A stretch of 37,729 bases of DNA from Atractiella rhizophila (GCA_021432655.1 MU271581.1:4250-41978), one strand, 5' to 3'. Counted from the stretch's first letter, positions 7,626-14,949 are shown. The notes: generated by a model from the letters alone, not told the origin. Numbers and translations are program-made.

Positions 7626-10600
7626 TTAATCGACACTACAACCTGACCTGCTCCTTAACTCACCTAACTGGGAGTTGGGTACAAAATGCGCTCCTCCAGC
7701 ACAACGATACCCTCCATTCTGTTTGATCCATACATACCCAGCAGGGCATATCCCCATGCTCTCCAGCTTCTGTCTCGCCTTCTTCTCTTCCGCTTCCTCC
7801 TTCAATCGCCTCTGTAAGGCTTCCTCCAACTCCTTCTTCCTCCGCTCCAGCCTCTCCTTCTCCTCTTTATCCTCCTTATGCTTTCCAGCCACAGCGAGGT
7901 CAAGAAGCAGCTGATAGTGCTCCATGCTCTCCCGCTTCGCTTCCTCCTCCTTTCTAGCCGCCGCCGCTTTATCAGCCAGCAACTGAGCCCAAATTTCATC
8001 CGATACCCCAGCATCCCTACCATCATCCTTCTGTTCCCCTGGTGACTCTTCTGCCACTTTCGGATCCACTTCACCAGGTGCCTCCTTGGTCTCAGGGGGT
8101 TTAACTGGCGCCTCCTGGGTTTTCGTTCGAGTAGATGTATTGAATGATGGCGGTTTCGCGTCCTGATGGAGAGTGGCAGTCGGACCCATCGTCGCGCTTT
8201 GTCTGCTCTGACCGACATTGGCCCGACCTTTCATCTCCTCAAACTTATCCCGCATGATTTGAAGACAGGTAGACAACTGAATAGGGATCTTTGACGGCGC
8301 CGTCTTCCAGTCAGTTGTGCGATAGGTTTCTGCAACCATTGCTTTCGCGAGCGTGAGGACGTCCCTTGCATTTCCCCAGCTGTCGAGCGAGGAGAATTTC
8401 TTGAAAAAGGAGACGAGAGGTTGAGAGTCCCCTGTCAAAATGATGTCCTCCTTCTCCAGCTCCTTGACCAAGACTTCGAGACAGTGCTGAGGACTTAGGT
8501 GGGAGAAGTTGATTTCTTCGGAGAAGCGACTCGAGAGCCCAGGATTGGTGGACAGCAGACGGTTGATGTCCTTCTCGTATCCAGCAAGTATGATGATAAT
8601 TTTCCCCTTACACTTCTCTTTCGTCATCAAATCGACAAGCTCGTCCATCGCCTCCATGGCAAACCCTCCGTCGCCAAGCCGATATGCCTCGTCGATGAAC
8701 AGCACCTTCCCAATCGCACTCTCCACCTTTTGTCGAGTCTTCGGTCCAGTTTGCCCAACGAATTGCCCCACGAGATCAGAAGCACTGCATTCGACGACAT
8801 CGTCCGAAGAAAGGAAACCGAGATTCCAAAAGAATTTGCCAATCTTGCGCGCCGTTGTCGTCTACATCAAAAGTAAACGGAAGTTGAGACCAAATGTAGT
8901 CAGACTCACCTTTCCAGTACCTGGCGGACCTTTGAAAACAAAAGCTGTCGGAATCGTACCTCTGGGATCTTTCCCACGCTTCTTCATTCCTTCAGCAGTA
9001 CGCCGGTACCCCTCAAGCTTCCTCACAACCTCATCGCATCCAGCGACATCCTTGAACAACTCTCTCAAATTCGTTCCAGCTTCTTGATCTCGCTCATGGT
9101 CTGGATCGAAATGCTCGGGTCCCAAAATGACTGAAGAGTAGGAAGACCCGCATGTCGACAGGAAGCGAATCTTGGCTTCCCCAAGCATATTATCAATTTC
9201 CCCAGCATTGCCAAAATTTGGCAAGTGGCTTCGACTTTCCAATACCTTCAGAGCCACCTTTCTCCCTTCCTGGCTAACCTTTAAGTCTTGATCCCGAAGC
9301 TTCTTATCCAATATTTGCCCCAATTGCTCTAAGGTGAAATTCGTGAAACGGAACGCAGTAGAAGCAGGAAATCGTCGGGACAGGCCAGGGTTGACGGCCT
9401 TCATCATCTTGCTCATCTGCTCTTCGTATCCCAATAACAGCACGCAACGATCCTCGCCAGCCACATTCTGCACTTCTGCGACTATCGTGTCGATGACAGC
9501 TGTACGAAAAGGATCGCTGTGATTGCCGACGCCATCGCTACCAGACGAGTATAGGGAGTAGGCTTCGTCGATAATCAGGACTTTGCCCACAGTTGTTGCA
9601 AGGATTCTTTTCGTTTTGTCCTCAGATCCTCCAACGACGCTGTCGATGAAATCGGCTGGAATTTTTACGACGACCTCACCGTTGCTCAGAAGGCCGAGTT
9701 GGACAAGAATCTGGCCATAGAGCTTCGCAACGGTAGTTTTGCTGCCATGCCAATGAGATTTGAAGTTAAAAGGACCAAGTGCTTACCCAGTTCCGGGAGG
9801 ACCAAGAAACTGCCTATTCAGTGGTATATCCAGCGGTGACTCTTCACGCAGCTCTCGCTGATAGTTTTGTGCGAGCGAAAGAAAGAAAGATTGGATTTCT
9901 TGCTTCACATTCTCCATTCCAACCATATTGCGAAGCTGATCCCATGCTTTGCAACTCTTCTCGACCTCTGACGGTTCAGGTCCGATGAGGTCCTCCTTGC
10001 TGAGGAAGAAATCGTCTGATCGTTTCCCAGCTCTCCGTTCGGCTGACAGCCGTACTGACTGGCAACTGTGGATCCGATTCAACAGTGAGTGGCAGGCCCT
10101 GGCATTTCCAAACCCTGGACTGCCGCGCATTCGACCTAATCTCCTGACAGCAATCCGCAAGAAAAGCCCATGGAGACCACCCTCCACCGTCATACGACCC
10201 TGCCACTTCTTCTCGATGATCGCTTGCAAGATGGAGAGGAGTTCTACATCGGTGTAGTCTTCGAATTTCATTTGATATGGGATGCGAGACTGAAGACCAG
10301 GATTGTGCTCGAAGAAACTCTCCATCTCTTTCGGGTAACCAGCTACAATGAATAGTAGCTTTCCGATGTGATTCTCCATTTCAGCGAGAAGAAAATCGAG
10401 GACCTAGGATCGCGTTGCAAAGTAAGTCTGAAGCGAGATGAGAAAGGAGGAGAGGAAATACCTGCTCTCCGCCAGGGTTTTTTCCATTTGTCAGCTGATA
10501 CGCTTCGTCAATGAAAATTGTTCCTCCGCCAGATTTGAGCATATCCTCAAGACATTTTTTGATAGTTGCAACTCCTTCCATAGCAAGCTTTGATCCACTC

Positions 10601-13600: not shown

Positions 13601-14949
13601 GTTTCATCCAGATGGTCGCAATGGGAAACAGTTCCGACTGGCCTGCTTGGAGACCACGAAAAGAGTTCATCAGCTAGATAAATGGTTTTGATATCTTGGA
13701 GAGCTCGCAGAACAGGCTCGTAAGCGAAGATGGCCGTATCCAGCACACAGAGCTTGATTTTTGCACCAAGAAGTTTAGCCAGAGTTTTCTTCACACCTCC
13801 TCCCACCAATCGAGTAATGATGATTGGCTGATCTTTAGCAAGGTCCTCTTCATCACGATGTATGGTGCCGAAACCGACGCACTGACGATCAACTATGAGG
13901 CATGCAACTGATTGATGACGAAGAAATTTCTTGTTGTCCGCCAAATACGCTTTCCGTTTCTTCTCCCCCTTCTCCTTCCGCAAAGGTCCAAAGGGTTCTG
14001 GTGCCCTCAACTGGATACACCACGGGATCCTCTTCGCAGGGTCCTTTCCGAAAAACAAGTCCTGAAGAAGCTCGAGTCCATCGATCACCAAACCGCGATG
14101 ACGACCTTTCGCCTCGCCTAAAGCAATTTGGATCTCCAACCTCAGTTCCCCAAGCATGTCCTCGCGTAAAAGTCTAAATTGATTGTCGAGATGGACCGCA
14201 GTTAGGCAATCTCGGTAGTCCTCATCTGCGAGCTCTGATGTCATGCGTAGGAATGGAGGCTCTTTACAAAGCAGCTCATCCATGGTCGGGAGAATGGAAA
14301 CCTCTGAGAATTGCTCGAAGTCGTTGTCGTGACGCCCACCTGGATAATCACGGTCCTTGGCCAGCGCAGCTGAAGCTGATGGCGAAAGGCGAGTAGAAAT
14401 GATCTTTTTAATCTTCTGGCCGAGATTACGCACTTCTCCAGACTGAGAATTCTCAATCGATTTCTGGAGAACAGAATCGCGCTGGAAGAGATCGATGTAC
14501 TTCTTTGCCTTCTCAACTGGAAGGGATACCAGACCTAGGAGAAGCCATGCAAAGCATTGTTCAGTCTCGGAGAGAAGCTTCCTTGCTTTGAAAGCTTCGA
14601 CGAAAGGATCCCAAAAGATGGAAGGTTCAACGATTGCAAGGAGAACCTCATCGAGGAAACGACCTTTGGAGACATTGACGAGCGAAGGGTGCTGCAGGAA
14701 GGAGAGGGTGCGTCTTCCATGAGCATTAAAGAATGAGACGTCGGTATCGGTCCGCATGGCTTGTTGAAGGGCTGAAAGACCATGAGTGCTAGATTTAAGC
14801 CGTTGAATAGCATCCGCATAAAGGTCAGGCTTAAGAGCAATCATAGAGTCGAGGAACTGTTTTGCTGAGCGATTCGTGAATATGGGAGGATCTTTCGCGG
14901 AGATCGTCTCCCAGAAATGTTTTGGGGGAGGTGCTCTCTGCCCGTTCAT
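7626..14949 (-). CDS. ZNFX1-like SF1 (UPF1-like) RNA helicase with NFX1-type zinc fingers, coiled coil, three CbbX/SpoVK-type AAA+ domains and a C-terminal Cys/His motif (about 2,200 aa, multi-exon)
   Basis: ZNFX1-type signatures [15 protein letters not shown] and [15 protein letters not shown]1 motifs [76 protein letters not shown]. Cys/His cluster [20 protein letters not shown]. Three modules with G(S/P)PGTGKT, IDEAY and (F/W)GNA(R/G). Ends [21 protein letters not shown]. Consecutive ORFs join via short GT-AG introns (e.g. 13457-13414). Confidence 0.9.

What the first reader, a model, noticed from the sequence alone, without database searches (positions are those of the whole stretch)
7626..14949. 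ZNFX1-like RNA helicase fused to three CbbX-type AAA+ ATPases: candidate fungal RNA-sensing defence machine
Seen: one spliced gene encodes a helical N-terminus, a ZNFX1-signature SF1 helicase, short NFX1-type Cys/His fingers, a charged coiled coil, three AAA+ modules each with Walker A and B, and a small C-terminal Cys/His domain. Known: animal ZNFX1 is an RNA sensor in innate immunity and small-RNA inheritance; RNF213 is an immune E3 built on tandem AAA+ domains; CbbX (red-type Rubisco activase) and SpoVK-type AAA+ proteins are substrate-remodelling ATPases. Inference: this architecture couples RNA detection to a protein-remodelling ring (three modules, possibly dimerising into a pseudo-hexamer), plausibly for antiviral defence, RNA silencing or regulated cell death. 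I recall similar fusions being auto-annotated in other filamentous fungi, but know of no functional characterisation.
Basis: partly seen in the sequence, partly recalled or inferred. Interest (0 to 1): 0.8.

Follow-up and report, generated by a model that had tools for sequence, protein, structure and literature searches.

The report
ZNFX1-like helicase–triple AAA+ fusion gene
A real, expressed fungal gene encodes one giant protein that joins an RNA helicase related to the human immune sensor ZNFX1 to three chaperone-type ATPase motors; the family is widespread in fungi, but its function has never been tested.

Summary
Window 7626-14949 (minus strand) is one 10-exon gene. My hand-built model gives 2284 aa and is letter-for-letter the database protein P0121, labelled Atractiella rhizophila. 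All 9 predicted introns appear as joints in intron-less contigs of run X5.

The N-terminal half belongs to the ZNFX1 family: human ZNFX1 scores 238 bits against 103 for UPF1, with an ARM-fold N-terminus, a 1B barrel and conserved Cys/His fingers. It lacks ZNFX1's E3 ligase modules (RZ pattern absent; Miz not tested).

In their place are a charged linker and three AAA+ modules of the SpoVK/CbbX/EccA clade. These are followed by a helical hairpin and a conserved Cys-Cys-His beta-knuckle, which occurs elsewhere as tandem repeats.

The three modules differ by position. Only AAA3 keeps a pore-loop aromatic, and AAA2 has lost the sensor-2 arginine.

The fusion is ancient in Dikarya and is also found in an oomycete. 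One paper mentions it in passing (PMC11513918).

I read it as an RNA-tethered specialised chaperone. An immune or silencing role is plausible but not shown.

The parts
7626..14949 (-). Whole coding region, 10 exons, 2284 aa plus stop. Exons: 13458-14949, 12691-13413, 12549-12644, 11836-12492, 11688-11782, 11394-11629, 10462-11332, 9787-10403, 8910-9741, 7626-8861.
   Evidence: Model built. Identical to P0121. All 9 introns are joints in X5 contigs.
14365..14925 (-). N-terminal armadillo-like helical domain (aa 9-195).
   Evidence: AF2 gives 11 helices with block pLDDT 81-98 across aa 11-190, falling to 52 over aa 191-200. VIA gives Z 10.3, rmsd 3.5, 154 of 173 residues to the human ZNFX1 ARM domain 9eve. 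This is tied with other ARM proteins, e.g. mDia1 at Z 11.0. No Pfam hit.
13654..14343 (-). Pre-helicase region (aa 203-432): near-invariant PGGRHDND...PT.DE motif, a long helix and the 1B beta-barrel.
   Evidence: phmmer aligns own 209-555 to ZNFX1 chain positions 415-772. VIA gives Z 13.7 to the ZNFX1 helicase core 9q9z, model 211-432. Motif kept in 55-60 of 63.
11519..13530 (-). SF1B (Upf1-like) helicase core, aa 474-1058, interrupted by introns 1-5. Intron 1 splits the Walker A codons (GPPG|TGKS).
   Evidence: Pfam AAA_11 at 474-802 and AAA_12 at 817-1038. Listed motif residues kept in 53-63 of 63, apart from four positions where this protein departs from the family majority: Q796, Y840, N997 and L766 (56 of 63). 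PADLOC MkoA 2.4e-71 over 471-1058.
12701..13240 (-). Large insertion in RecA1 (aa ~556-735), at the position of ZNFX1's 1C insertion.
   Evidence: Lies between Pfam AAA_11 profile segments. Only its last ~60 residues (676-735) align to ZNFX1. The role of 1C in ZNFX1 is taken from 10.1101/2025.10.14.682297 (passages).
11167..11422 (-). Cys/His finger stalk (aa 1091-1155), split by intron 6. One stretch fits the NFX1-type pattern as I recall it (C1106-x2-H-x-C-x3-CH-x4-H-x4-C).
   Evidence: Own 984-1153 aligns to ZNFX1 chain positions 1266-1432. Cys/His kept in 58-61 of 63. Pfam zf-NF-X1 E=0.024, below its cut-off.
10762..11166 (-). Highly charged linker, probably a coiled coil or single helix (aa 1156-1290).
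   Evidence: 49% K/R/E/D with net charge -2. No structure was predicted for it.
9939..10761 (-). AAA+ module 1 (aa ~1291-1545; intron 7 inside). Walker A at 1314-1322, Walker B at 1372-1380, sensor-2 Arg1492. No pore-loop aromatic.
   Evidence: Pfam AAA and AAA_lid_6 at 1477-1529. NCBIfam spore_V_K, EccA and cbbX hits below cut-offs. Conservation.
9039..9896 (-). AAA+ module 2 (aa ~1560-1830). Intron 8 splits Walker A (GTG|KT). Walker A and B are intact. The sensor-2 position is Gly, and there is no pore-loop aromatic.
   Evidence: The sensor-2 position is Gly in 61 of 63; the pore-loop position is V/A/H. The same GNAG is seen in Phytophthora module 2.
8226..9026 (-). AAA+ module 3 (aa ~1835-2085). 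Intron 9 splits Walker A (GTGK|TT). This is the canonical module, with pore loop GQ[YF]VGQTGPK and sensor-2 Arg.
   Evidence: PDB phmmer: EccA1 8e-24, CbbX 3e-20. Foldseek: CbbX top at 2e-11, next best Vps4 at 1.7e-5. Pore-loop Tyr in 58 and Phe in 4 of 63; Arg2039 in 63 of 63.
8019..8225 (-). Disordered linker rich in Ser/Thr/Pro/Gln (aa 2086-2154).
   Evidence: AF2 pLDDT 43-51 for exon-10 residues 224-277. Composition 56% S/T/P/Q/G/A.
7758..8018 (-). Tail (aa 2155-2241): conserved RDxGVSDxxWxQL motif followed by an antiparallel helical hairpin.
   Evidence: AF2 helices 288-325 and 332-369 of exon 10, pLDDT 77-91. R, D, W and L kept in 61-62 of 63. Also present in Phytophthora P0081.
7662..7757 (-). 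C-terminal Cys-Cys-His mini-domain (aa 2242-2273; CPxG[YF]xWIKQxxGYRCxGGxH), a three-stranded beta unit.
   Evidence: C2245 in 62, W2251 in 62, C2260 in 61 and H2265 in 60 of 63. AF2 strands with pLDDT ~82-92. 606 library hits at E<=1e-3, some with 2-16 tandem copies. No Pfam family.

Best explanation
This is one gene for a 2284-aa multi-enzyme.

Shown:
- A ZNFX1-family SF1 RNA helicase (ARM-fold N-terminus, 1B barrel, large RecA1 insertion, Cys/His stalk) is covalently joined through a charged linker to three tandem AAA+ modules of the SpoVK/CbbX/EccA clade.
- After the AAA+ modules come a disordered linker, a helical hairpin and a conserved Cys-Cys-His beta-knuckle.
- All helicase motifs and all three Walker A/B pairs are under purifying selection.
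- The three AAA positions are old and specialised. AAA3 is the only one with a substrate-gripping pore-loop aromatic. AAA2 has lost the sensor-2 arginine.

Inferred:
- The helicase plays the part that variable N-terminal domains play elsewhere in this AAA+ clade: it recruits the machine to its substrate, here an RNA or RNP.
- The AAA+ cassette then uses ATP to remodel or extract a limited set of proteins sitting on that RNA. AAA3 would be the working motor, with AAA1 and AAA2 as regulatory or structural ATP sites.
- In animal ZNFX1 the same helicase chassis carries a ubiquitin-ligase output. Here that output is replaced by a chaperone output.

Which pathway it serves (RNA surveillance, small-RNA silencing, antiviral defence or spore development) is not settled.
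For: Single gene: one open frame after 9 GT-AG introns, identical to the deposited P0121. All 9 joints and cover in 29 of 30 bins are seen in X5 contigs. Exon 7 alone runs from the fingers through the linker into AAA1.

Fused architecture in relatives: 97 of the 120 best N-terminal hits are 2000 aa or longer. By regex, 70 of 120 carry helicase, at least 3 AAA modules and the tail motif.

ZNFX1 family: 238 bits to human ZNFX1 against 103 to UPF1, over three regions including the pre-helicase and finger parts. Structural Z is 13.7 to the ZNFX1 core and 10.3 to its ARM domain.

AAA clade: NCBIfam spore_V_K, cbbX and EccA are the top hits for each module. PDB best matches are EccA1 and CbbX. Foldseek puts CbbX first at 2e-11. 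The GY and NPG..SR signatures are present.

Catalytic motifs and positional specialisation were measured in 63 full-length relatives. Positional clades AAA1, AAA2 and AAA3 are shared with Phytophthora.

Literature: members of this clade are specialised chaperones whose N-terminal domains recruit substrates. [quoted passage not shown]
Against: There is no experimental or expression-response datum for this protein. RNA binding, ATPase activity, oligomeric state and substrates are all inferred.

Only one of the three modules has a pore-loop aromatic. A 3+3 ring would therefore have 2 gripping loops of 6, which is unusual for an unfoldase and is compatible with a switch or scaffold role instead.

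No single contig spans helicase and AAA parts end to end, so an extra internal transcript cannot be excluded.

Some databases hold helicase-only and AAA-only proteins. At least four such pairs share a contig length: LTR50_007101/007102 (also consecutive locus tags), P0129/P0135, P0058/P0211 and P0096/P0221. They look like split gene models, but real splits are not excluded.
Confidence: 0.5

Rival explanations
1. One reading: an innate-immune sensor-effector. Foreign RNA (mycovirus dsRNA, transposon transcripts) activates the helicase, and the AAA+ ring executes defence by dismantling viral RNPs or by triggering growth arrest or cell death.
For: The helicase half is homologous to ZNFX1, a human antiviral and antibacterial factor (10.1101/2025.10.14.682297, abstract and passages). 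It is also homologous to the anti-phage Mokosh helicase MkoA, at 2.4e-71. ZNFX1 is listed among human MkoA hits in 10.1101/2022.12.12.520048 (passage).

Several genomes carry 2 copies: Athelia, Hebeloma, Mycena, Armillaria and Gautieria.

The C-terminal motif recurs as repeats behind TPR-like (P0245, by eye), ubiquitin-like (ULD_2, P0247) and NPHP3_N/NACHT-type fragments (P0261).

NCU09357 is called 'ATPase, DNA/RNA helicase' in one paper and 'stage V sporulation protein K' in another. It has dN/dS 0.349 in a list of fast-evolving sex-associated Neurospora genes that also holds QDE-2 and an RdRP (PMC3571971, passage; PMC6468284).
Against: The tree is largely vertical, with Agaricomycetes forming one clade and Ascomycota basal. 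Enzymatic motifs are near-invariant.

The gene is transcribed in at least one run and sits among housekeeping genes. There is no death or nuclease effector domain.

Any Upf1-like helicase would hit MkoA. The preprint counts over a million eukaryotic MkoA hits. NCU09357's orthology to this gene was not tested here. No virus-induction data exist.
Confidence: 0.2
2. A small-RNA pathway cofactor like Hrr1, SAD-3, RnhA or ZNFX-1. It would mark target RNAs and hand them to RdRP or Argonaute, with the AAA+ cassette recycling or loading those complexes.
For: Hrr1, SAD-3 and ZNFX-1 are described as homologs in small-RNA silencing (10.1101/220111, passages). Mucor RnhA, a Sad-3-like helicase, is needed for epimutation (PMC5384783, abstract and passages).

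Mucor RnhA's best Neurospora BLAST hits are NCU09357 and NCU05861, not SAD-3.
Against: [quoted passage not shown] If NCU09357 is the family member, the fusion is a paralogue of the RNAi helicases, not one of them.

SAD-3 (1160 aa), Hrr1 (999 aa) and RnhA (1231 aa) are too short to hold three AAA modules.

No RNAi gene lies in the window. Co-occurrence with Dicer, Ago or RdRP was not testable here.
Confidence: 0.15
3. The AAA+ cassette is not an unfoldase. It is a nucleotide-controlled assembly switch or scaffold, in the manner of STAND or ORC-type ATPases, that oligomerises the helicase on RNA. The tail knuckle would mediate partner binding.
For: Pore-loop aromatics are missing in AAA1 and AAA2, and the sensor-2 Arg is missing in AAA2, in 61-63 of 63 relatives.

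Human ZNFX1 itself works as polymers nucleated by ARM dimers (10.1101/2025.10.14.682297, passages).

The tail motif is a repeat module in other proteins.
Against: AAA3 keeps a textbook pore loop (Tyr in 58 and Phe in 4 of 63) and every catalytic residue. Its closest solved relatives, CbbX and EccA1, are described as chaperones in PMC11513918.
Confidence: 0.12
4. Two neighbouring genes (a helicase and an AAA protein) wrongly merged, or a pseudogene.
For: Databases hold helicase-only (~1000-1500 aa) and AAA-only (~720-1450 aa) proteins. No single contig covers the whole gene.
Against: There is no stop codon and no gap in the spliced frame. Exon 7 itself encodes fingers, linker and AAA1. The intron-6 joint links it to the helicase exons.

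97 of the 120 best hits are 2000 aa or longer. All motifs are intact. Several 'split' pairs share a contig length, one with consecutive locus tags.
Confidence: 0.03

Closest known systems
Human ZNFX1 (PDB 9q9z helicase core; 9eve ARM domain)
   Same: - SF1B helicase with the same pre-helicase region and 1B barrel.
- An ARM-fold N-terminal domain and an insertion in RecA1.
- A Cys/His finger stalk directly after RecA2.
   Different: - The RZ-finger ligand pattern is absent. No Miz-like domain was found, though that was not tested (RZ pattern; own tail).
- The stalk is short, about 65 aa.
- Three AAA+ modules and a new tail follow instead.
- Most of the RecA1 insertion (556-675) does not align.
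S. pombe Hrr1, N. crassa SAD-3, Mucor RnhA (RNAi helicases)
   Same: They belong to the same ZNFX1-type helicase family according to the literature.
   Different: They are 999-1231 aa and too short to hold an AAA cassette. Probable Neurospora relatives of this fusion (NCU09357, NCU05861) fall outside their cluster.
CbbX (red-type Rubisco activase), SpoVK, EccA: the SpoVK-EccA-like AAA+ clade
   Same: - These are the best sequence and fold matches for each module.
- GY sensor-1 signature, NPG..SR motif and AAA_lid_6 lid are shared.
- The N-terminal domain acts as the presumed substrate recruiter.
   Different: - Scores lie far below the equivalog cut-offs (86-126 bits for the best model on exons 8-10, 53 on the AAA1 piece, against 423-467), so this is none of these three proteins.
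- Three modules sit in one chain rather than in a homohexamer.
- AAA2 lacks the sensor-2 Arg, and AAA1 and AAA2 lack the pore aromatic.
Bacterial tandem CbbX-like AAA arrays (e.g. P0072, labelled Bacillus cereus group, TPR + 4 AAA; P0091, 4 AAA + trypsin-like protease)
   Same: Several CbbX-type modules with AAA_lid_6 in one polypeptide.
   Different: Their modules cluster by protein, which suggests recent internal duplication. The fungal and oomycete AAA1, AAA2 and AAA3 are old positional lineages. The bacterial arrays have no helicase and no tail motif.
Mokosh MkoA (anti-phage helicase)
   Same: The helicase core matches the PADLOC MkoA profile at 2.4e-71 over aa 471-1058.
   Different: No PLD nuclease partner was found in the protein or among ORFs of 150 aa or more in the window. 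The match is at the level of Upf1-like helicases in general.
RNF213
   Same: Only the concept is shared: a giant immune-type protein that combines AAA+ modules with another enzymatic activity. It shares the RZ finger with ZNFX1.
   Different: No RZ finger is present here. The AAA modules are classical CbbX-type. RNF213's dynein-like AAA modules are recalled, not tested.

Membership tests
ZNFX1/Hrr1-type SF1 helicase family | Upf1-like SF1B core with motifs I-VI intact | tested here: met
   Pfam AAA_11 9e-34 and AAA_12 6e-40. Listed motif residues kept in 53-63 of 63 relatives, apart from four positions where this protein departs from the family majority.
ZNFX1/Hrr1-type SF1 helicase family | Closer to ZNFX1 than to other SF1B helicases, with homology extending outside the RecA core | tested here: met
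   ZNFX1 238 bits against UPF1 103, Aquarius 86 and SEN1 67. Aligned regions are 209-555, 676-949 and 984-1153. VIA Z 13.7 for model residues 211-432.
ZNFX1/Hrr1-type SF1 helicase family | N-terminal armadillo domain (the ZNFX1 dimeriser) | tested here: inconclusive
   The ARM fold is clear: Z 10.3 to ZNFX1 ARM 9eve, with 154 of 173 residues aligned. Other ARM proteins score the same or higher, e.g. mDia1 at 11.0. No sequence match for aa 1-208.
ZNFX1/Hrr1-type SF1 helicase family | NFX1-type zinc-finger stalk after RecA2 | tested here: met
   Own 984-1153 aligns to ZNFX1 chain positions 1266-1432. Cys/His are conserved. Pfam zf-NF-X1 reaches only E=0.024, below its cut-off, and the stalk is much shorter.
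Animal ZNFX1 proper (helicase + E3 ligase) | C-terminal RZ finger (ligands C-x3-H...C-x2-C, with a catalytic Cys/His pair) and a Miz-like domain | tested here: not met
   RZ ligand spacing is taken from 10.1101/2025.10.14.682297, section 11. The own tail has only C2245, C2260 and H2265 conserved, with different spacing. No aligned region beyond own 1153 apart from a non-significant one. A Miz-like fold was not separately searched.
SpoVK-EccA-like AAA+ clade (as defined in PMC11513918) | Tyr in sensor-1 as part of a GY signature | tested here: met
   AGY, LGY and AGY: Tyr in 63 of 63 in all three modules, Gly in 62-63 of 63.
SpoVK-EccA-like AAA+ clade (as defined in PMC11513918) | [quoted passage not shown] | tested here: met
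   NPGLxSR: Asn in 63, 62 and 63 of 63, with an invariant Arg six residues later. The same spacing occurs in bacterial relatives. The paper says 'four residues upstream', so which Arg it means is my reading.
SpoVK-EccA-like AAA+ clade (as defined in PMC11513918) | Second arginine finger (sensor-2) retained | tested here: inconclusive
   Arg in 63 of 63 for AAA1 and AAA3, but Gly in 61 of 63 for AAA2. The feature is therefore met by two of the three modules.
SpoVK-EccA-like AAA+ clade (as defined in PMC11513918) | Best sequence and fold matches lie within the clade | tested here: met
   NCBIfam spore_V_K, cbbX and EccA are the strongest hits on every AAA piece; FlhF also appears on the AAA1 piece at 9e-7. 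PDB: EccA1 and CbbX. Foldseek: CbbX 2e-11 against the next best at 1.7e-5.
CbbX, SpoVK or EccA themselves (equivalogs) | Score above the curated NCBIfam cut-off | tested here: not met
   Best 126 bits against cut-offs of 423-467.
Mokosh defence system | MkoA helicase together with a PLD nuclease (MkoB) | tested here: not met
   MkoA profile 2.4e-71. No PLD domain in the protein or in neighbouring ORFs of 150 aa or more.
NLR/STAND NTPases | NACHT/NB-ARC-type NTPase with sensor repeats | tested here: not met
   Only P-loop-level cross hits with no passing stretch: nSTAND3 and NPHP3_N, 0 stretches.

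The most novel reading that the evidence does not exclude
This is a fungal and oomycete counterpart of the animal ZNFX1 sensor, in which the ubiquitin-ligase output has been swapped for an ATP-driven protein-extraction motor.

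Viral, transposon or aberrant RNA caught by the helicase would license an ARM-mediated dimer. Its 3+3 AAA+ modules would close into a pseudo-hexamer with only the two AAA3 pore loops gripping substrate. The ring would strip replicase or RNP proteins off the RNA.

The C-terminal Cys-Cys-His knuckle would be a previously undescribed mobile recognition or assembly module, shared with NLR-like and ubiquitin-like-domain proteins.
Probability: 0.15. Interest if true: 0.85.

Novelty: new member of a known kind. Interest (0 to 1): 0.5.

Why it matters
ZNFX1 is now a central, mechanistically studied immune helicase in animals. Fungi keep the same chassis but wire it to a different output, a CbbX/SpoVK-type chaperone cassette.

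Working out what this roughly 2300-aa enzyme does would show how an RNA helicase can direct a protein-remodelling motor. It would give a first function to the eukaryotic branch of the SpoVK-EccA clade. It could also reveal an RNA-surveillance or antiviral pathway in fungi that is independent of canonical RNAi.

Three results make direct experiments easy to design:
- the positional specialisation of the three AAA modules;
- the unnamed Cys-Cys-His mini-domain;
- a probable Neurospora member, for which a knock-out could be made and tested.

Tried and rejected
**Genome and shared resources**
- No genome is held for the window, so copy number in the organism itself could not be measured. Only one protein labelled Atractiella appears in the two best-120 lists, which is weak evidence.

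**Searches that gave nothing**
- ESM Atlas on the tail and on repeat protein P0243: no usable hit.
- The third homologue search, with P0243: 5 unnamed hits.
- Pfam on the tail: only DUF7066 at E=0.54, which is noise. Pfam on the N-terminal exon: nothing.

**Structure and complex**
- Complex prediction with two copies of aa 1-200 gave no answer (score 0.00, controls not run, alignment not used). It says nothing either way about dimerisation.

**Reads**
- Runs X1-X3 hold small shares. Apart from the X3 joint at intron 9, they add only scattered cover.
- There is no X5 cover in 15032-15325. X5 word depth is higher over the AAA half than over the helicase half. The tool states that depth of contigs cannot rank parts of a gene, so I draw nothing from it.

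**Literature**
- Paper searches 'ZNFX1 / fungi / AAA' and 'stage V sporulation protein / NFX1-type zinc finger / fung' found no functional study of the fusion. The search 'CbbX / SpoVK / fungal / helicase' found only the passing mention in PMC11513918.
- S6 Fig of PMC5384783 (a docx) and the supplements of PMC11513918 were not opened. They may show the domain maps of NCU09357 and of the eukaryotic helicase-AAA proteins.

**Alternatives rejected**
- A 37-nt alternative for intron 2 was rejected in favour of the 46-nt one. This was confirmed by homologue alignment and by the RNA joint.
- An RZ-finger reading of the tail was rejected on ligand pattern.

Full report
**Observation**

The region 7626-14949 is read on the minus strand. 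Stop-to-stop frames there carry helicase and AAA matches in consecutive pieces. I placed nine GT-AG introns of 44-61 nt by hand from the three-frame translation and the junction sequences.

The result is a 6855-nt open frame of 2284 codons in 10 exons. The only uncertain junction was intron 2 (46 nt against a 37-nt alternative). It was settled by alignment to 11 relatives, where [22 protein letters not shown] matches their spacing exactly.

The model is identical, residue for residue, to a database protein of 2284 aa. That protein is labelled 'P-loop containing nucleoside triphosphate hydrolase protein [Atractiella rhizophila]' (P0121).

**RNA evidence**

One search for sequencing runs found a run (X5) that holds 66% of the sampled words, plus four runs with small shares. 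I laid X5, X1, X2 and X3 on 6800-15600.

X5's contigs lack every one of the nine predicted introns. Allowing for the stated cut shifts, the joints are:
- 13413>13458
- 12644>12691
- 12492>12549
- 11782>11836
- 11629>11688
- 11332>11394
- 10403>10462
- 9741>9787
- 8861>8910

All have CT..AC ends, which is GT..AG on the minus strand. X5 is therefore transcript-derived, and the gene is spliced as modelled. X3, from another study, shows the 8861>8910 joint as well.

X5 covers 29 of 30 bins. The bin without cover (15032-15325) lies upstream of the ATG.

No single listed contig spans the whole gene, so one continuous mRNA is strongly implied but not directly shown. Two things support continuity. Exon 7 alone encodes the fingers, the linker and the first AAA module up to and beyond Walker B. 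It is also joined to the helicase exons by the intron-6 joint.

**The helicase half**

Pfam finds AAA_11 (aa 474-802, 9e-34) and AAA_12 (817-1038, 6e-40).

Against all PDB chain sequences the best match by far is human ZNFX1 (9q9z, 1.3e-69, 238 bits). Next come UPF1 (103 bits), Aquarius (86 bits), SMUBP2, SEN1 and DNA2. The ZNFX1 alignment covers three regions:
- own 209-555, the pre-helicase region through Walker A;
- own 676-949;
- own 984-1153, the end of RecA2 plus the finger stalk.

An AF2 model of exon 1 (497 aa, 46-row alignment, pLDDT 87, pTM 0.76) shows an 11-helix repeat domain, a long helix and a beta-barrel. In the VIA second look, model residues 211-432 match the ZNFX1 helicase core at Z 13.7. 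Residues 14-192 match the crystal structure of the ZNFX1 ARM domain at Z 10.3, with 154 of 173 residues aligned. Other ARM proteins score as high, so only the fold is established.

The cryo-EM preprint on ZNFX1 (abstract, passages and section 11 read) describes the human protein in this order:
- an ARM dimeriser;
- an SF1 helicase with a 1B barrel and a large 1C insertion;
- a rigid NFX1-finger stalk;
- a Miz-like domain and an RZ finger that together form a bi-catalytic E3 ligase.

The fungal protein has the first four elements. Its RecA1 insertion is aa ~556-735, and its stalk is only about 65 aa. Its conserved tail residues do not fit the RZ ligand pattern.

PADLOC's Mokosh MkoA profile matches the core at 2.4e-71. 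I take this as family-level helicase homology and not as evidence for a defence system. No PLD partner is present.

**The AAA+ half**

Each module's strongest NCBIfam hits are spore_V_K, cbbX_cfxQ and T7SS_EccA. All lie far below the equivalog cut-offs. The best solved relatives of AAA3 are EccA1 (8e-24) and CbbX (3e-20).

An AF2 model of exon 10 (pLDDT 84) matches CbbX first in Foldseek (2.3e-11). Vps4, FtsH and proteasomal Rpt subunits follow at about 1e-5. 'CbbX-type' is therefore correct at clade level.

The SpoVK paper (PMC11513918, passages only) defines this 'SpoVK-EccA-like' clade by three features: a GY sensor-1 signature, an Asn upstream of the first Arg finger, and a retained sensor-2 Arg. 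[quoted passage not shown] The fusion is thus already in print, in one sentence, without any analysis or experiment that I could see in the main text. I did not open its supplements.

**Conservation and specialisation**

I aligned 63 full-length relatives and measured conservation at each motif.
- Helicase motifs I-VI are kept in 53-63 of 63, apart from four positions where this protein departs from the family majority.
- Walker A and B of all three AAA modules are kept in 59-63 of 63 at their invariant positions.
- The GY signature is kept in 62-63 of 63.
- The Asn and Arg of the NPG..SR motif are kept in 62-63 of 63.

The modules are not equivalent:
- The pore-loop-1 aromatic exists only in AAA3 (GQ[YF]VG; Tyr 58, Phe 4 of 63). 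AAA1 has N/H/S there, and AAA2 has V/A/H.
- The sensor-2 arginine is invariant in AAA1 and AAA3 but is Gly in AAA2 (61 of 63).

A tree of single modules puts fungal AAA1, AAA2 and AAA3 in three positional groups. Each has a Phytophthora module beside it, and the Phytophthora module 2 also reads GNAG. The modules of bacterial tandem arrays cluster by protein. The triplication and its division of labour are therefore old.

**The tail**

After AAA3 come three elements:
- a disordered S/T/P-rich stretch (pLDDT 43-51);
- a conserved RDxGVSDxxWxQL motif opening an antiparallel helical hairpin;
- a three-stranded beta unit carrying CPxG[YF]xWIKQxxGYRCxGGxH.

182 of the 240 proteins then in hand carry the beta-unit motif under a strict regex. 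In all but three of them it starts 21 to about 80 residues from the C-terminus.

A phmmer search with the last 46 residues against 1.84 billion representatives found 606 proteins at E<=1e-3. Most look like C-terminal fragments of this family. Some unrelated proteins carry the unit in tandem, by HMMER matched stretches: 16 in P0241, 8 in P0242, 7 in P0243, 4 in P0245 after a TPR-like stretch, and 4 in P0247 after a ULD_2 ubiquitin-like domain. P0261, with 2 stretches, has them after an NPHP3_N fragment. No Pfam family covers it.

With only two Cys and one His conserved, its metal binding is uncertain. It is an unnamed mobile mini-domain.

**Distribution**

Of the 120 best hits to the N-terminal exon, 97 are 2000 aa or longer. 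By regex, 70 carry helicase, at least 3 AAA modules and the tail motif.

They come from these groups, by the labels:
- Agaricomycetes, with many Mycena, Armillaria and Suillus;
- Leotiomycetes, Lecanoromycetes, Eurotiomycetes, Pezizomycetes, Geoglossomycetes, Orbiliomycetes, Sordariomycetes and Dothideomycetes.

Identity to the window protein is only 37-45%.

The tree of 63 sequences, out of about 110 full-length ones in hand (I picked one or two per genus), has Agaricomycetes as one clade. Ascomycota are basal, and Atractiella sits on a long branch next to the Agaricomycete clade. Duplicates occur in Athelia, Hebeloma, Mycena, Armillaria and Gautieria. This pattern is mostly vertical descent with some duplication.

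The search with AAA3 plus tail was capped at 2055 aa, so it under-samples full-length forms and over-shows 'AAA-only' proteins. At least four helicase-only/AAA-only pairs share a contig length, one with consecutive locus tags. A Botryotinia 'AAA-only' protein is sister to the full-length Sclerotinia protein in all three module groups. Many of these are therefore probably split gene models.

**Context**

Neighbouring ORFs are ordinary:
- a GH92 glycosidase;
- a class-I Glu/Gln tRNA synthetase immediately downstream;
- an RPA OB-fold protein;
- an NmrA-like protein;
- an MFS transporter;
- a helicase with an HA2 domain;
- a Na/Ca exchanger;
- a glycosyltransferase.

There are no transposons and no RNAi genes among ORFs of 150 aa or more.

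**Literature leads to function**

Three papers mention Neurospora NCU09357:
- It is described as 'stage V sporulation protein K', up-regulated late in conidiation in an ADA-6-dependent way (PMC6468284, passages; repeated in PMC11708020).
[quoted passage not shown] The three annotations together fit a helicase-AAA fusion. I could not fetch the sequence, so its membership is an inference.

**Mechanism**

I commit to the following reading. The helicase is the targeting domain of a specialised AAA+ chaperone. It engages RNA, and the tethered cassette remodels proteins on that RNA. AAA3 would be the motor, with AAA1 and AAA2 as regulatory ATP sites.

What is shown: the architecture, the family memberships, the conservation and the specialisation. 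What is inferred: RNA binding, unfoldase action, ring formation and the pathway served.

Defence and small-RNA roles are kept as rivals (0.20 and 0.15). The scaffold or switch reading of the AAA cassette is at 0.12. Mis-merged genes is at 0.03.

**Novelty and score**

This is a new member of an already catalogued, auto-annotated family that has been mentioned once in print and never characterised.

- a transcript-verified gene model;
- the demonstration that the chassis is ZNFX1-like up to the stalk, but with the E3 output replaced;
- the positional specialisation of the three AAA modules;
- the recognition of the tail knuckle as a mobile repeat.

Interest is 0.5. This is a well-founded target for experiment rather than a surprise in kind.

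Noticed in passing
window 7662-7757 (-); proteins P0241-P0267: The C-terminal Cys-Cys-His unit of this gene is a mobile repeat. Unrelated, unnamed proteins carry 2-16 tandem copies by HMMER matched stretches (P0241 16, P0242 8, P0243 7). In some it follows a TPR-like stretch (P0245), a ULD_2 ubiquitin-like domain (P0247) or an NPHP3_N fragment (P0261). No Pfam family covers it.
   Followed up: partly
window 13414-13457, 9742-9786, 8862-8909 (-): Three of the nine introns interrupt P-loop (Walker A) codons: the helicase (GPPG|TGKS), AAA2 (GTG|KT) and AAA3 (GTGK|TT). The AAA2 and AAA3 introns are about one codon apart and in different phases, so they are not simple copies of one ancestral intron.
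   Followed up: no
window ~5000-7635 (-): The gene immediately downstream on the same strand encodes a class-I Glu/Gln tRNA synthetase (tRNA-synt_1c, 1.8e-20). It has an N-terminal Ser/Arg-rich stretch that looks like a mitochondrial presequence. X5 contigs show two spliced introns (6871>6930, 7004>7065). The intergenic gap to our stop codon is only a few hundred bases.
   Followed up: partly
window 15326-15600 and beyond: Upstream of the ATG lies a much more deeply covered transcribed region (X5 word depth 163-209), with a 56-nt intron (15368>15425, CT..AC). It was not identified.
   Followed up: no
window 17829-19451 (-): A 540-aa open frame without any Pfam match at E<=1e-5.
   Followed up: no
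window 29131-31448 (+): A second helicase gene in the window. One ORF piece carries an HA2 winged-helix domain typical of DEAH-box RNA helicases (4.5e-7).
   Followed up: no
window 1888-4251 (+); 22892-23539 (+); 32715-34354 (-); 36383-37729 (+): Ordinary neighbours: a GH92 alpha-mannosidase-type gene in several exons, a replication protein A OB-fold gene, a Na/Ca exchanger and a DXD glycosyltransferase.
   Followed up: no
window 6800-15600 against run X5: X5's contigs differ from the window at many positions. Of 33 laid pieces, 19 are at least 99% alike, 13 are 95-99% and 1 is 90-95%, mostly by transitions. The run therefore seems to come from another strain or a close relative rather than from the assembled isolate.
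   Followed up: no
proteins P0013, P0072, P0091, P0001, P0017: Bacterial or metagenomic proteins carry 4-5 tandem CbbX-type AAA modules. They are preceded by TPR repeats (P0013, P0072) or followed by a trypsin-like protease (P0091). These are uncharacterised multi-AAA arrays whose modules cluster by protein.
   Followed up: partly
protein P0081 (Phytophthora kernoviae label): An oomycete protein has four CbbX-type modules plus the same RDPGVSDEDW...CPAGFKWYK..GWRCAGGSHF tail, but no helicase. Its modules pair with fungal AAA1, AAA2 and AAA3. This points either to an old eukaryotic cassette or to fungus-oomycete transfer.
   Followed up: partly
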